Assembly: GCF_964204865.1 (NCBI RefSeq)
Contig: NC_135250.1
Coordinates: forward strand, 9,238,001-9,302,000
Length of the DNA: 64,000 bases
Direction: 5' to 3'
Origin: Styela clava
Lineage: Eukaryota
Of the stretch, positions 42,001 to 51,000 are shown piece by piece (position 1 is the first letter of the stretch; each line of letters starts with the position of its first letter). Made by a program: the position numbers.

Positions 42001-45000
42001 AAAATGGAGGCTTTGGTTTCCTCACTTGGTTCTCAAGCGAGCAGTCCGAGAACTGAAACTGCCACGTTGCAAGGGCGCATATCAGCCAAATCTCCACCTG
42101 AGCTGACTGCTGATATTTCTTCGTCAGGCCTCGACTCGTGGAAGATTATGTGGTCCGATTACATGCAAGTTTCGGGCTACAATCAAGAACCACAAACGAA
42201 ACAAGTCGCTGTTTGTCGCGGATGTCTGTCGCTAGAAATGCTGTCCGTCGTAAAACACGTTCTAAATGTCAGCGAAGAGACCGAAAAATCCGTTGACGTT
42301 ATTTTAGAAGATATCAAGAAAATATTCGCAGTCAGATAAATGTTGCACTAGACAGGGTGTTGTTTGAAGAGCGCAAACAAGGTGATGGAGAAAGCTTCGA
42401 TTCGTTTTAATCGCATTGAAAAAGCTAGGAAGAGACGCTGAACTCTGCGAAAACTGCTACGATGAGCGGCCCACTACACGAATCATTGCTGGCGCAAGAA
42501 ACGCAACAGCCAGGGAAGAGCTGTTGGCGAAAAGCCCTTTTCCTAATCTACAGACAGCGGTTGATCTGTGCAGATCGAAAAAAATAACAACACTGATTTT
42601 TCGAAAAAGCAGAATTCGATTGCCAGTTCGATACAGATCAAGAAACCGTTTCAAAGACGATTCAAACCTAGGAACGTTCGCAACAACATGTCTTGTCAAT
42701 ATTGTGGACGAAGGCATGGTCAAAGATTAGCCTAGGGCGACTATGCCTGATAACTAAATATTAATGTAATGGCCGAACAATATAATTCCTGCCGGGTGGT
42801 TTTTTTTGCAACCAGCCTGAACCGTATACAAAAAATGCTGCCTATATGTCAGAAAATATAGTAATTACCCTCCTGTATCTCAAATTTGGTAAAATTCGGT
42901 AAGCAATCAATCTGCTGTTATTTGTAAGTTATTTTGCAAACATGAGTTTGAAATAAAAGCTGACCAATTCAAACATGTTTTTGACTAGATACGGGAGGAA
43001 AAATATCACAATGTTTGCTTAATATGATAACAAAAAGGGCATTTTCTTCGTATGGCACTTCCTCCGTTGTGAAGATTTTGAAGTCTTACACCGAATGTAG
43101 ATATAGTAAAACTTTTGCACGTTTGAATGAGTTTTTTGCATGTTTTAGCTTGATGAATGGCAAATAATGACCAATGTGTCTGAACAATAAAAGTGTTTGT
43201 TTTGTATGGCACTACCTATTCTTAGCACTATTGTGGCCCGCAAACAATACAAAAATTATAGTGTGGCTCGCGAGGCCGACCACCTTGGACCACCCTTACT
43301 GATTACCATCCTGGTCTATACTATAGTACTCTATATGACACGGAGAAAATAAATCACCGTTATCTAGCGTTAATTTCATCTTTTACTTATTGAGGAGATA
43401 TGACATATTCCTCGCTCAGTATTTAATTACCCGTTTGCGTTTTTACTGCTACGAAGCATGAGGCCCTCATATGTGAAATAGGGTTTTCATAATTATCACA
43501 GTGGAGACAAATCCGTGTGTAACCACGACTTTTCCTTCGCCCTCGATTGGTTACCATTTCATGTCGAGTCTGGTAATACGTTTCAGATGCATGAACTTGA
43601 TGGCGCAGGAAACCGTTATAGACAAGTGAACCATCGTGTGACGGGAAGGAATTCAGCTTACCTCTCGCACATAATTATACTCAAGGGAATCCAACCTGAT
43701 TACCCACATTGAGTTTATTGGGTGTGTGATACCAAGCGCGTTCCTGAAGCTCATATATATATTTATTCATTAAAATGTGTATATTTTCTCTTCTGTATTT
43801 CCTAAGATATGTGGCTACTGATGTTGAATTAAAAACGAGATCCTGTACTCCTTTGATTATAGAAGATAATTTATTCAAAATTATATCAAAAGATTGCAGC
43901 ATTAAAGCAAGCATTTTTTTCCCAACAGTCGCTGTCATCTTGTTCAATACATTGATGACTAAACGTTGTTCAATCTAATTTGTCTTTATTTTTATTAGGT
44001 ATGTGAAAAGGAAACATAGGTTTTGATGAATATAATGTAAAAAGCACATGGATTCGCATACCTAACGCCATTGAGCTTTCTTATCAGAGGGCGAACAAAT
44101 TTAATTGAGACAGATATTACCGTACATGCTGGCAATCAGCAATAATAATTCTTTCTTTATTATTGGAGTATTTTCAAAAGTTTTTCAAACATGATCAGAA
44201 GGGATTTTCAGTGCAAAAGTTAATAATAAGATTGCAAAAGAGAATAAACATTCTAACATAAATGTGACAAATTTTTAGCATCATTGTGAGCCCATGGGCG
44301 ACCAGCTATTCAAAGTAACAATGTTTCATGTTTGTCACATATGTTTTCTTACATCCAATATGTATATTCGTAATTTTATTCAAGTGTTGCAGGATTCAGT
44401 TCTTCCATTTCTTTTGGCTTCGGTTCTGAATTGAAGAATAATAATTTTTTTAGTCAGATTATCAGTTGAAGTTTGACGGCTTTACGATTTGCACATAATG
44501 GTATACGCTTATATATCATTGCACCGGTTATTTCTATTTGATTTTCAAATTCAATTGTCTTGAGTAATGATTGTGGGCAATGGTTACTGTACAATAACGA
44601 TTCTTTCACCATCGATGCATATGCAAATGAAGCAATTGATTGGTTGCTAATTCCATATCGACAAATAGAAAATTAGACTGTAAGTAAACTGTTTAAATGA
44701 AGATTAAAGTTTTATTTCATCGTGAATCTTCAATTCACGAACTTACGTGATCCACCCTTGGCCTTATGTTTTTTAGCTTCTTTAGTTCTTATGATGAAAA
44801 TAACCAGTGCAGTCAGCATTGCGGCTCCTGCTATAACTCCAACCACTATTCCGACGATCATTCCAGTATCAGTATAATGAACTGAAAAATTAAGAGTTAT
44901 ATTTAGATTTTAGATTAGTTTTTTAGATTTTATTTAGATTAGTTTTATTTATCTATACGGGGAAGCCGATAAATACGATGATTTGAAAAGAGTTCGAATA

Positions 45001-48000: not shown

Positions 48001-51000
48001 AGATTGATATCACGGAAAAAAATGATATCAAATTCATTTTGTAATAGTAGATATACAGTATATGATTATGATGTAAATATGGGATCTGTTGTTAAAAAAA
48101 AAGTTAAAACATCATCAGGCCCCTAGTTAGATGATTCTCCAAAACTTTGGTACAGGCGTGATGTTGATGGCACTAGGCAAAATAAAAATATTTTACTCAA
48201 GTCGCCATATTTTTTTGTTTTGTTATAGAACTAATATAGGAAATCATAGTCGTTGCAAGCCTAGTTAAGATTTTATATTGAAAACATACAAAAATTGAAA
48301 AAAATGGGGAAGAGTCTTCTAAAAATCTAACCGATTCGAATCTTCAATAATCAGTAAGAATTTTGAAAATTTCATCTATATTTCAAGATGAGTTCGCCTT
48401 CAATTGAGTAGGCATCATCTGAGGCGAGTGCGCTGGACATGAATAAGAAAGAAATTCTTTATCTTTAACTATTCTCCAATTTAGTAACGAACACTTATTC
48501 CTTTTATAAATGTATATTGTTCTGTGACGTCTGTTCAGTAAGCATACTGTACTGATTTTTTATTGATTCTTAGGGAATGTTTGATGGTGGCCAAGGTGTC
48601 GATTTCCATTGTGTCTTCCGTTCTATTTCATGTTTCAGATGCCACTTACAAATTGCTGAGTTATTTATCTGACAAAACTTTGTTTCAAGATATGCATGGT
48701 GAGACGTTACATAATTCCGAAAGGCAAGTTTCGTTTTAGGACTCACTTGTCATTCGAAATAAAATAAAATTTAGACCTTTATCGATGTTTAAGATTACAA
48801 ATACTCACTTTTATTCACCTGTTTACGTACTACTGCTTGATGCGTATCAATAAAAATGAATAGACTTTATAACAAACTTAAACAAAAAACTGAACTGAAC
48901 TTTATCTTGAAAATATTCGATAGTCTTTGAAGGCTCACACTAACTCTTCTAGTATTATATAAGGATTACTTCACGCTGACCTCTACTTGCTGTGATGGGA
49001 TCAAATTCGTTTATTATACTATTTCATAATATCAAGTAGAAAGAATATAACAAACCTTCTATTAAACAACATCGAGTTGTTAGATTTGCCCACTTCTATT
49101 CATTTACTAAGGGATTTTATTGTATCTCAAACTTGGATCAGTGACCTGGGCGCAGCGCGAGTAAGCCTTCATCGCTTCATCTCAATGCTTGATTACGGCT
49201 CTGCCCATTCGGGGCAGATGTTGTAGGATTGTATGAACTAACTTGATTTGTAGATAAGGCATAGTATCAGATTCGTATTATACCTAGATCATATACGTTT
49301 TAGGATTGAGAAACGTTTAATAATTAACGTTTCTTCGTTAGATCACATCGTTTGCTCAAGTTTCACATAGGTCGATCATTAACGAAGTGGTGGGCGGGAG
49401 ATGGTATAACGTATTATTTTTTAAATATCTTTATCTTGATCTTTTTAAATAATGATTGTTTAGTTTTGTTGCGCTAGTTAAAGTAAATATGTCAATACAC
49501 GTAGAAATCCCACCCATTCCCGCCTACGTCGTTGACGTTTTTGGAGAACAGCTTGATCACTTCTTTATAGTGAAGTGATCCAGTGGGGTTGCGCGTTTGT
49601 CTGTTTCTATACGCCCTTATTTTAACTCTAACATGTATAAGTTGTTTCCGATTCTGCCTTTTGGCACCACCAACATTTACTTTCTTTATGTTTCTGTGTA
49701 TGGGTTTCGATATTGAAACCAATCCCTTATGGTGTATTCACCCCGAAAACGCCGCGAACATAATAAAGAGAATAAATTTAGTGTGATGCGATGTATTTTT
49801 TCGCAATCCTTATTGACTATGATGTCATTTGAAAATCAGTACACTAATTAAATATTTGCATTTTATATTTATAAACCACGTTATGCTCAACATACATCTA
49901 TGTGAATAGAACAGACCAATGACATATATCACTAAATCGAGATACAAATAAGGAAAGCAATTTTAGAAAATATGGCTTATATGTATAATTGAAACGAACG
50001 TGGAATTCTCTGGATCTCGTTCTTCTTATCTCAACTGTTCACGGAGATAAGAACACATCTGTATTGATATATTTATATTGCAACTTACACAACATCAAAA
50101 TTGAGCCTTAGATGACAAGCAATCATCAATTTACTGGGGTTATTCCAGCATTGACTGATTAAAATAATTTTTGTATTGGTTCCTCCCGTTTATGTCATAA
50201 AATGGCAAGAATATCAGGGCAACCAGTAATAATATATAGGTAATTTGTGGTTCCATCGGCTTTTAAAATAACCAACATTATACTAATTCACTCAATACTG
50301 GCGAGATGTTACGTTCTGAACATTGAAGCACCATCATTTTATGTAGGAAATCAACAGCATTAATGCGGTTTGAGATAGATCATCTACAGTTCAAAGTAAA
50401 TACGATTTCTATTCAATGAAATATTTTTGGTTTTCCAGTGGTATTAACACATTACATGAGCAAACCGCAATATATGTGTACTCTAAGTAACGTCACTAGT
50501 GGATTCCTTCCAAAAAGCTTGTCTGAAGATATGTATCGAGTGGATGTATAAGAATCATTTCAAGCAAATTCAAACCTTAATCAAGAAGGTCCTCAATTTT
50601 TGCGTGCTTTTCTACGCGCGAGACGGTTTCTCCTTTCGTTATAATGTGAGACAACGAACGATAGAGTAAACATTATATGTTTATTCAGAACTGATATCAC
50701 CACAAATATTAGCTTATCATTAACGATAGACCCATAGGCCATAACGTAATCCTTGTACGAATTCACCTCGACCCACGAATACTATATGTCTCGATAGCTT
50801 TTATGGAAACTGTAATATAATATGAAAATGTAAAAAAAGTAGTTCTCGTTACCTTTGAATATTTTTTCAATTGGTTTTAATTTGTGAAAGGATATATTCT
50901 CAGCTACCAAAAAATTTTTATCGACTTATTTCACTACCATTTTCAAGATAAAAGTTTATATGATCAGCCCAAATTTGGTGCCAGAACCAAATGAAATGCG

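What the first reader, a model, noticed from the sequence alone, without database searches (positions are those of the whole stretch)
44376..48037. Riboflavin-binding-protein/folate-receptor family member built as a type I transmembrane receptor
Seen: signal peptide, a complete RBP/FOLR Cys-rich domain, a ~24-residue hydrophobic helix on its own exon (44747-44881) with a basic stop-transfer (RTKEAKKHKAK), and a ~30-aa tail ending EMEELNPATLE. Established: vertebrate members are secreted (RBP, FOLR3), GPI-anchored (FOLR1/2, JUNO) or peripheral (retbindin), not TM-plus-tail. From recalled sequences it is closer to RBP (LTEQL..P, FCGDWYEACKDD). It keeps the aromatics equivalent to the flavin-sandwiching Tyr75 (CYYQC) and Trp156 (EMW). 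It lacks the FOLR1 pterin-binding Asp and the W of the WRKER loop. Inference: a membrane flavin/vitamin-uptake or recognition receptor.
Basis: partly seen in the sequence, partly recalled or inferred. Interest (0 to 1): 0.72.

Follow-up and report, generated by a model that had tools for sequence, protein, structure and literature searches.

The report
Membrane-anchored riboflavin-binding-protein relative in sea squirt
This is an intact sea-squirt gene for a relative of the egg riboflavin-binding protein that, unlike its vertebrate cousins, is fixed in the cell membrane by its own helix and short tail; the build is real and shared by other tunicates, but what it binds is untested.

Summary
Window 44376-48037 (minus strand) carries a seven-exon gene with six GT-AG introns and an 879-nt CDS. 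It encodes a signal peptide, one complete Folate_rec domain with 18 Cys, a 25-residue hydrophobic helix on its own exon with a basic stop-transfer, and a 30-residue charged tail. The window is Styela clava (ascidian), not human. A public record, "riboflavin-binding protein-like" (292 aa), matches the exon peptides at all but 2 residues.

Sequence and predicted fold are nearest chicken riboflavin-binding protein (RBP): phmmer E 7.7e-29 against about 1e-15 for folate receptors and Juno, and Foldseek TM 0.81. Two pocket features are RBP-type: an aliphatic residue where folate receptors have the pterin-binding Asp, and a short loop 2.

Helix plus tail is not unique. It recurs in two unnamed 48-52% relatives, in Oikopleura, and in a second folate-receptor-like tunicate lineage (Styela, Phallusia). 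About 17 of 152 family representatives scanned have it. No paper found describes it.

Ligand and function remain inferred. I rate it a new variant of a known kind, of moderate interest.

The parts
47930..48037 (-). Exon 1: start codon, signal peptide (hydrophobic core, A-K-A before Q21) and the first Cys of the domain
   Evidence: Kyte-Doolittle segment 1-21, mean 1.97. tblastn with the public allele gives 97% over 36 aa.
47403..47557 (-). Exon 2: N-terminal part of the Folate_rec domain (LTEQL stretch, single N-glycosylation sequon NYS)
   Evidence: Pfam 20.6 bits, profile 11-54. Family profile E 1.7e-12. Sequon at N77.
46239..46380 (-). Exon 3: core of the domain, with CYYQCSPNL (Ile at the folate-receptor Asp site; the conserved Tyr), the short loop 2, and FCGDWYEACK
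   Evidence: Pfam 53.4 bits against cut-off 29.8. Alignment to 6hce and to FOLR1. Column counts.
45500..45625 (-). Exon 4: middle of the domain (DDRTC...QC...PC)
   Evidence: No Pfam hit alone. Family profile positions 147-179, E 2.2e-7. Aligned to RBP.
45262..45424 (-). Exon 5: end of the domain (EMW Trp, Cys 186 and 203), a helix, and the stalk with the 18th Cys
   Evidence: Family profile positions 180-224, E 3.1e-9. AF2 helix 209-220.
44747..44881 (-). Exon 6 (135 nt, phase 1 to 1): juxtamembrane Y-x-D-T-G, a 25-residue transmembrane helix with GxxxGxxxG, and the basic stop-transfer RTKEAKKHKAK
   Evidence: AF2 helix 237-273 with block pLDDT 90-97. Conserved in P0008, P0009, P0012, P0080 and P0151.
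44376..44425 (-). Exon 7: last 16 residues of the cytoplasmic tail (conserved KPKEMEELNP motif) and the TAA stop
   Evidence: Motif conserved in P0008 and P0009; a related QEM-x-TM is present in P0012 and P0080.

Best explanation
This is an intact seven-exon gene of the ascidian Styela clava. It encodes a 292-residue single-pass type I membrane protein whose whole ectodomain is one Folate_rec domain of the riboflavin-binding-protein type.

**Most likely mechanism**
1. The signal peptide is cleaved.
2. The disulfide-rich ectodomain (18 Cys) sits on the cell surface or in the lumen of endosomes.
3. It holds a small aromatic ligand in the family's conserved pocket. The ligand is most probably riboflavin or a close flavin derivative.
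4. The glycine-zipper helix and the short conserved tail tether the protein and route it. Vitamin capture and delivery would then need no GPI anchor and no separate carrier receptor.

**Shown here:** gene structure, domain, fold, helix plus tail, and their conservation in relatives.

**Inferred:** membrane topology, the ligand, and uptake.

**Confidence by part:** about 0.9 for a real type I membrane Folate_rec protein; about 0.45 for a flavin-type ligand.
For: **Gene model**
- Canonical splice sites, consistent phases, and 879 nt giving 292 codons.
- The same product is in a public Styela clava record.
- Two unnamed relatives of 292 and 285 aa (52% and 48% identity) keep the helix, the tail and all 18 Cys. 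They sit on contigs of only 1.1-1.3 kb, which cannot hold six introns. I infer these are spliced transcripts.

**Domain and fold**
- Pfam and family profile, exon by exon.
- AF2 mean pLDDT 89.4, pTM 0.74, helix 237-273.
- Foldseek best hit is chicken RBP 6hce: E 2.7e-19, target TM 0.81, rmsd 2.1 A, 33% identity. Juno and FOLR chains score TM 0.69-0.78 at 21-25% identity.

**RBP-type pocket**
- phmmer against PDB gives 7.7e-29 for RBP and 2.6e-15 or weaker for FOLR and Juno.
- At the FOLR Asp site, the residue is Ile or Leu in 5 of 5 of the Styela clade and aliphatic in 10 of 11 of the vertebrate RBP/retbindin clade. It is Asp in 3 of 3 FOLR-like rows.
- The loop between the flanking Cys residues is 18-20 residues in the Styela clade and 21 in the RBP clade, against 25 in FOLR-like rows.
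- A careful tree puts the gene outside a starred (99/100) FOLR-type group.
- Holding it with the vertebrate RBP clade raises the likelihood by 5.8 (p-AU 0.565).

**Helix is functional, not just greasy**
- GxxxGxxxG is present in 6 of 6 members of this clade and in 0 of 7 of the other tunicate TM clade.
- The tail motif is conserved.

**Ligand-binding mode in RBP**
Against: - No ligand test of any kind was possible.
- The stacking Tyr and Trp are family-wide, so they do not point to flavin.
- The free trees do not place the gene inside the vertebrate RBP/retbindin clade.
- The AU test also fails to reject a grouping with folate-receptor-like rows: log-likelihood 28.2 lower, p-AU 0.239.
- No Styela transcript data were available. 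The public record is an automatic model of unknown support.
- The tail has no canonical endocytic signal that I can read: no Tyr, no NPxY, and no acidic di-leucine.
- The vertebrate RBP serine cluster, seen in the C-termini of P0031 and P0149, is absent.
- The residue names Tyr75 and Trp156 for chicken RBP are recalled. The source paper was not held.
Confidence: 0.5

Rival explanations
1. The ectodomain has lost vitamin binding. It acts as a recognition or adhesion module, as mammalian Juno does, or binds a lipid like the related NPC1 N-terminal domain. The helix and tail then serve anchoring or signalling.
For: - Juno shows that this fold can switch from vitamin binding to protein binding (passages of PMC4751342).
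- An amphioxus Folate_rec-LRR membrane protein is reported to act in bacterial binding and phagocytosis, with few folate-binding residues (PMC10199209, abstract and passages).
- NPC1 N-terminal domains are weak fold hits (E 7.6e-3).
- The helix and tail carry conserved motifs that fit partner binding.
Against: - In Juno the pocket loops are disordered or displaced. Here the model is confident throughout the domain: block pLDDT is 88-98 over residues 31-230.
- The pocket Tyr is kept in 5 of 5 of the clade and the Trp position is aromatic in 5 of 5 (W in 3, F in 2).
- Sequence and fold are far nearer RBP than Juno.
Confidence: 0.25
2. It is a true folate receptor that binds folates with a divergent pocket and is simply anchored differently.
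For: - It is a Folate_rec family member with the aromatic pair kept.
- Grouping with folate-receptor-like rows is not rejected (p-AU 0.239).
- Folate receptors act in signalling in C. elegans (PMC11442744, abstract).
Against: - The Asp that binds the pterin is Ile here. This Asp is called D103 in PMC4751342, and loss of the equivalent residue is named there among the reasons Juno does not bind folate.
- The loop that carries the WRKE stretch is 5 residues shorter.
- The careful tree excludes the gene from the starred FOLR-type group.
- Styela has a separate folate-receptor-like paralogue (P0097).
Confidence: 0.1
3. The membrane form is not the main product, or is a model artefact. The main product is secreted, by skipping exon 6 or by reading into intron 5. 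Alternatively, the hydrophobic stretch is a GPI signal.
For: - Exon 6 is 135 nt and phase 1 to 1, so skipping it keeps the frame.
- Read-through of intron 5 stops after 7 codons, and that intron holds 3 AATAAA.
- Switches between GPI-like ends and helix-plus-tail are frequent in the family: at least 10 on the tree.
Against: - A GPI signal ends in the hydrophobic stretch (established knowledge). Here 30 charged residues follow it.
- The helix, the stop-transfer and the tail motif are conserved at 48-52% overall identity, on short contigs that look like transcripts.
- AATAAA in 28% GC introns is expected by chance; 5 of the 6 introns hold at least one.
Confidence: 0.07

Closest known systems
Chicken riboflavin-binding protein (PDB 6hce; vertebrate RBP/retbindin clade)
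   Same: - Best sequence match (E 7.7e-29, residues 28-206) and best fold match (TM 0.81, 33% identity).
- Shared DWYEACKDD and TEQL stretches.
- Aliphatic residue at the folate-receptor Asp site and a short loop 2.
- 18 Cys here; that chicken RBP also has 18 is recalled.
   Different: - RBP is secreted and carries a serine-rich acidic C-terminus, seen in P0031 and P0149.
- RBP reaches oocytes through other receptors. I saw only the titles of Miller 1982 and Mac Lachlan 1994 in the reference list of PMC10668813.
- This protein has its own helix and tail and no serine cluster.
- The trees do not place it inside the vertebrate clade.
Human folate receptors alpha and beta (4lrh, 4kmz) and Juno (5f4e, 5ejn)
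   Same: Same fold and cysteine framework. The aromatic pair of the pocket is kept.
   Different: - They are GPI-anchored (passages in PMC10199209, and PMC4751342).
- The pterin Asp is present in the FOLR-like rows, with a 25-residue loop.
- Identity is only 21-25%.
Tunicate 'folate receptor gamma(-like)' proteins: Styela clava XP_039264761 (P0097) and Phallusia mammillata CAB3246774.1 (P0046)
   Same: Folate_rec ectodomain, one transmembrane helix and a cytoplasmic tail, in the same animal group.
   Different: - A separate, starred clade within the FOLR-type group (100/98).
- 25-residue loop, and Asn or Ser at the Asp site.
- Tails of 49-72 residues; four end in a G-x-L-x-x-x-L type motif.
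- No glycine zipper (0 of 7).
Oikopleura dioica Folate receptor-like domain protein CBY40022.1 (P0151)
   Same: In the same starred clade of six (98/85). It has helix plus tail and the same GxxxGxxxG.
   Different: 376 aa, very long branch, with a long-branch warning. The tail is unrelated in sequence.
Amphioxus FrLRR (PMC10199209) and the amphioxus 4-6-domain Folate_rec proteins (P0010, P0011)
   Same: Invertebrate-chordate Folate_rec proteins with non-vertebrate architectures. P0010 and P0011 are the top-scoring hits.
   Different: - FrLRR adds LRRs and has a terminal hydrophobic stretch with a predicted GPI site.
- P0010 and P0011 are tandem arrays without a helix.

Membership tests
Folate_rec (Pfam PF03024) family | Match to the family profile above the curated cut-off | tested here: met
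   Exon 3 alone scores 53.4 bits against cut-off 29.8. Exons 1-5 are colinear on a profile of 85 relatives.
Folate_rec (Pfam PF03024) family | Conserved cysteine framework | tested here: met
   18 Cys in the ectodomain. 6 are in invariant and 9 in at-least-90% columns of the 90-sequence alignment. All 18 are invariant in the three close relatives.
Folate_rec (Pfam PF03024) family | Folate-receptor/RBP fold | tested here: met
   AF2 pLDDT 89.4. 35 PDB matches at E <= 0.001; every one of those listed is an RBP, FOLR or Juno chain.
Vertebrate riboflavin-binding protein (RBP/retbindin) orthologue group | Nearest to RBP among characterised members | tested here: met
   RBP is first by 13 orders of E-value in sequence, and best in TM-score and rmsd.
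Vertebrate riboflavin-binding protein (RBP/retbindin) orthologue group | Falls in one clade with vertebrate RBP/retbindin | tested here: inconclusive
   The free trees keep it apart. The constrained tree is 5.8 log-likelihood units better, p-AU 0.565. The rival FOLR grouping is 28.2 worse but not rejected, p-AU 0.239.
Vertebrate riboflavin-binding protein (RBP/retbindin) orthologue group | Secreted, with a serine-rich phosphorylated C-terminal region | tested here: not met
   It has a helix plus a charged tail instead, and no serine run between Cys203 and the helix. Compare the C-termini of P0031 and P0149.
Vertebrate riboflavin-binding protein (RBP/retbindin) orthologue group | Binds riboflavin | not testable with these tools
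   Only pocket-type features could be compared.
Folate receptor proper (FOLR1/2 type) | Asp that binds the pterin ring | tested here: not met
   Ile96 aligns with the FOLR1 Asp. The column is Asp in 3 of 3 FOLR-like rows and Ile or Leu in 5 of 5 of this clade.
Folate receptor proper (FOLR1/2 type) | Long loop 2 with the WRKE(R) stretch | tested here: not met
   A 5-residue gap lies opposite it. The loop is 20 residues here against 25.
Folate receptor proper (FOLR1/2 type) | GPI-anchor signal (hydrophobic stretch at the very C-terminus) | tested here: not met
   30 residues with 8 K/R and 5 D/E follow the hydrophobic core. No GPI predictor was available.
Type I single-pass membrane protein | N-terminal signal peptide, one hydrophobic helix of about 20-25 residues, positive charges on the C-terminal side | tested here: met
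   By hydropathy and reading only, plus an AF2 helix at 237-273. SignalP and DeepTMHMM were not available, and topology was not tested experimentally.

The most novel reading that the evidence does not exclude
The protein is a cell-surface sensor for flavin-derived cues rather than a nutrient carrier. It would be the missing receptor for lumichrome-type signals.

- An RBP-type pocket tied to a conserved glycine-zipper helix and a conserved tail motif would be a plausible way to turn ligand binding into a signal.
- The same passage says that lumichrome did not work in other ascidian species.
- Nothing here links this gene to larvae.
Probability: 0.05. Interest if true: 0.8.

Novelty: new variant of a known kind. 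Interest (0 to 1): 0.4.

Why it matters
In vertebrates this family is secreted (RBP), peripheral (retbindin) or GPI-anchored (folate receptors, Juno). Much of the cell biology of vitamin uptake by folate receptors has been framed around the GPI anchor (for example the abstracts of PMC2116044 and PMC2120971).

Tunicates, the closest relatives of vertebrates, appear to build both the RBP-type and the folate-receptor-type members with a true transmembrane helix and a cytoplasmic tail. That offers three things:
- A natural contrast for asking what the anchor type does.
- A possible view of the ancestral state of RBP: membrane receptor first, yolk carrier later, or the reverse.
- A candidate surface receptor for flavins in a filter feeder.

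It is not a new fold or a new family, and the gene is already in public annotation under an automatic name.

Tried and rejected
- **Self-association.** The verdict was 'no answer' (score 0.01, mark 0.32). This says nothing either way about dimerisation through the glycine zipper.
- **Word-index protein searches.** These were nearly blind: 1 hit of 1 candidate, 3 of 572 and 10 of 1478. The family picture rests on the exhaustive phmmer search.
- **Papers not held.** Monaco 1997, Chen 2013 and Wibowo 2013 were unavailable. The residue numbers Tyr75, Trp156 and D81 are therefore recalled. Searches for them found nothing.
- **Membrane anchor of C. elegans FOLR-1.** It is not stated in the passages found.
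- **Tandem duplication.** Rejected: this is the only Folate_rec locus in the window.
- **tRNAs and neighbouring ORFs.** There are no tRNA genes. ORFs at 39.4-44 kb give no Pfam match.
- **GPI anchor.** Considered and rejected on the 30-residue charged tail. No predictor was available.
- **AU tests.** They could not separate RBP affinity from FOLR affinity with significance.

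
Full report
**Source and handling**

The window has no N and is 30-39% GC. The exon-3 peptide is 100% identical to a public protein of the ascidian Styela clava, 'riboflavin-binding protein-like', 292 aa, stored as P0007. I take the window for Styela clava, not human.

Whole-protein analyses used the public record P0007. It differs from the window's exon peptides at two residues, position 6 (I/F) and position 143 (E/G). 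It is therefore another allele or assembly of the same gene.

**Observation**

The minus strand of 44376-48037 holds seven exons: 48037-47930, 47557-47403, 46380-46239, 45625-45500, 45424-45262, 44881-44747 and 44425-44376.
- All six introns are GT...AG with pyrimidine tracts.
- The phases fit, and the exons sum to 879 nt, i.e. 292 codons plus TAA.
- Exons are 37-48% GC and introns 28-33%.

Pfam, exon by exon:
- Exon 3 alone passes the Folate_rec cut-off (53.4 against 29.8 bits).
- Exon 2 is a sub-threshold match to the preceding part of the profile (20.6 bits).
- Exons 1, 4 and 5 give nothing alone.

A profile built from 85 relatives, with the Styela clade removed, places exons 1 to 5 end to end along the domain. 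The domain is complete.

It encodes a 25-residue hydrophobic core followed by RTKEAKKHKAK. The tail is 30 residues with 8 K/R and 5 D/E. tblastn finds only this one Folate_rec locus in the window.

**Is the membrane form real?**

I had no transcript data for Styela, and the public record is an automatic model.

Two unnamed relatives, P0008 (292 aa, 52% identity) and P0009 (285 aa, 48%), keep the helix, the basic stop-transfer, a KPKE(M/L)EEL(N/H)P tail motif and all 18 cysteines. They lie on contigs of 1.1-1.3 kb, while this gene spans 3.7 kb with six introns. They are most simply spliced transcripts; this is an inference.

The helix is conserved in sequence, not only in hydrophobicity. A GxxxGxxxG glycine zipper preceded by D-(T/A)-G is present in 6 of 6 members of this clade, including Oikopleura, and in 0 of 7 members of the other tunicate helix-bearing clade.

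A GPI signal would end with the hydrophobic stretch (established knowledge). Here a 30-residue charged, conserved tail follows.

AF2, run with a 90-sequence alignment, gives mean pLDDT 89.4, a continuous helix at 237-273 and a low-confidence tail.

**What kind of Folate_rec domain?**

Similarity to solved structures:
- phmmer against all PDB chains puts chicken riboflavin-binding protein (6hce) first at 7.7e-29. Folate receptors alpha and beta and Juno follow at 2.6e-15 or weaker.
- Foldseek agrees: 6hce has TM 0.81, rmsd 2.1 A and 33% identity. The others have TM 0.69-0.78 and 21-25% identity.

In the 90-sequence alignment the Tyr column (Y100) is Tyr in 70 of 90 rows and the Trp column (W190) is Trp in 67 of 90, folate-receptor-like rows included.

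Two other features do discriminate:
- **The pterin-Asp position.** It is Ile or Leu in 5 of 5 of the Styela clade and aliphatic in 10 of 11 of the vertebrate RBP/retbindin clade. It is Asp in 3 of 3 FOLR-like rows and Asp, Glu or Gln in 47 of the 64 remaining rows.
- **The loop between Cys102 and Cys123.** It is 18-20 residues in the Styela clade, 21 in the RBP clade, and 25 in the FOLR-like rows and in the second tunicate clade.

The assignment of Tyr75 and Trp156 as the flavin sandwich in chicken RBP is recalled, because the paper was not held. [quoted passage not shown]

**Phylogeny**

A quick tree of 140 domain rows from 127 proteins and a careful tree of 61 rows agree on four clades:
- The gene with P0008, P0009 and P0012, plus Oikopleura P0151 and P0154 (98/85), with a long-branch warning for the last two.
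- A vertebrate RBP/retbindin clade (100/97), holding lamprey, lungfish and frog names.
- A FOLR-type group (99/100) that excludes this gene.
- Inside that group, a second tunicate clade (100/98) whose members all carry helix plus tail. Its named members are Styela 'folate receptor gamma-like' XP_039264761, Phallusia 'folate receptor gamma', and a Ciona savignyi record that ends inside the helix.

Whether the gene is the tunicate orthologue of vertebrate RBP is unresolved:
- Holding the two clades together gives a better likelihood than the free quick search (+5.8, p-AU 0.565).
- Holding it with FOLR-like rows is 28.2 units worse but not rejected (p-AU 0.239).
- I named both groups after seeing the first tree.

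**How common is helix plus tail?**

The exhaustive phmmer search found 364 representatives at E <= 0.001, 133 at <= 1e-10 and 8 at <= 1e-30. I ran a hydropathy scan of the 152 proteins then in hand, namely the query, P0009 and the 150 listed:

| Class | Proteins |
|---|---|
| No C-terminal hydrophobic segment | 70 |
| Hydrophobic stretch at the very end (GPI-like) | 51 |
| Short tail | 3 |
| Flagged as helix plus tail | 28 |

Of the 28 flagged proteins, I set aside 9 where the segment is N-terminal and 2 doubtful ones (P0018, P0146). That leaves 17 of 152, the query included.

On the 127-protein tree the state changes at least 10 times. That set was enriched by cluster members fetched.

- Named helix-plus-tail records are all tunicate: Styela (two genes), Phallusia and Oikopleura. 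The Ciona savignyi record ends inside the helix.
- Named non-tunicate invertebrate records (sea urchin, two sea slugs, a tapeworm, amphioxus) are GPI-like or lack a helix.
- Several unnamed clusters also have helix plus tail, but I cannot say what organisms they are.

**Literature**

None of the listed titles or abstracts, nor the passages I read, describes a transmembrane tunicate RBP or folate-receptor relative.

The nearest is amphioxus FrLRR, a Folate_rec-LRR protein with a terminal hydrophobic stretch and a predicted GPI site (PMC10199209, abstract and passages). Subscription journals and supplementary files were not visible. The supplementary alignment of PMC4751342, which bears on residue equivalences, could not be seen.

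**Mechanism**

The best-supported reading is a type I surface protein that presents an RBP-type pocket. Riboflavin or a near derivative is the likeliest ligand. The helix and tail replace the GPI anchor of folate receptors and the carrier-receptor route of yolk RBP.

- Shown: gene, domain, fold, helix, tail, conservation.
- Inferred: topology, ligand, trafficking.
- The tail has no canonical endocytic motif that I can read. Its conserved (K/Q)EM-x-x-(L/M) core is unexplained.
- Rivals: a ligand-free recognition role like Juno, a divergent folate receptor, and a mainly soluble product.
- Exon 6 is 135 nt in phase 1-1, so skipping it keeps the frame. Reading into intron 5 stops after seven codons. 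Soluble isoforms are therefore possible and untested.

**Verdict**

This is a new variant (anchor type) of a known family. It is already present in public annotation, shared across tunicates, and not found described in the searched literature. Interest is moderate (0.4).

Noticed in passing
window 44747-44881 and intron 44882-45261: The transmembrane exon is 135 nt in phase 1-1, so skipping it would keep the frame and give a secreted protein with the same C-terminal peptide. Reading into intron 5 adds 7 codons and then a stop, and that intron holds 3 AATAAA. This could be a membrane/soluble switch.
   Followed up: partly
window 44760-44860 (helix), compared with P0008, P0009, P0012, P0080, P0151, P0122: A GxxxGxxxG glycine zipper, preceded by D-(T/A)-G, is conserved in the helix of 6 of 6 members of this clade. 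It is absent from 0 of 7 of the other tunicate helix-bearing clade. It suggests helix-helix association.
   Followed up: partly
window 44376-44425 (tail): The tail motif KPKEMEELNP is conserved in the 48-52% relatives. A related QEM-(T/S)-TM is present in P0012 and P0080. It matches no sorting signal that I recognise.
   Followed up: partly
P0097, P0046, P0028, P0032 (not in the window): A second tunicate Folate_rec lineage, which includes a Styela clava paralogue, also has helix plus tail. Four of its tails end alike: GTLEIDL, GTLQMKL, GTLRMEL and GELELTL. This looks like a C-terminal motif, perhaps a PDZ-type ligand or a sorting signal.
   Followed up: no
P0010 and P0011 (Branchiostoma; not in the window): The top-scoring hits of the exhaustive search are amphioxus proteins of 1671 and 1105 aa. 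They carry five and four full Folate_rec domains in tandem (P0010 has two further partial matches) and no helix.
   Followed up: partly
window 24808-25191 (-): An open frame matches the end of the plasma-membrane choline transporter family (Choline_transpo, 56.7 bits against cut-off 26.9, profile 254-325 of 326). It is an exon of an SLC44/CTL-like gene upstream in the window.
   Followed up: no
window 40000-44000: This is the highest GC stretch of the window (0.39). It has long open frames on both strands at 41649-42730. The only family match is a weak sub-threshold coiled-coil hit (CCDC113/96, 21 bits against 31.6), and ten neighbouring ORFs give no hit. It lies just downstream of the gene's 3' end.
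   Followed up: partly
window 44903-44946: A small AT-rich tandem repeat (period 11-13, 3-4 copies) lies in intron 5, just upstream of the transmembrane exon.
   Followed up: no
window 48020-48022 and about 45604-45606: There are two amino-acid differences from the public Styela clava record: residue 6 (F here, I there) and residue 143 (G here, E there). This is allelic or assembly variation. Both sites lie outside the conserved columns.
   Followed up: no
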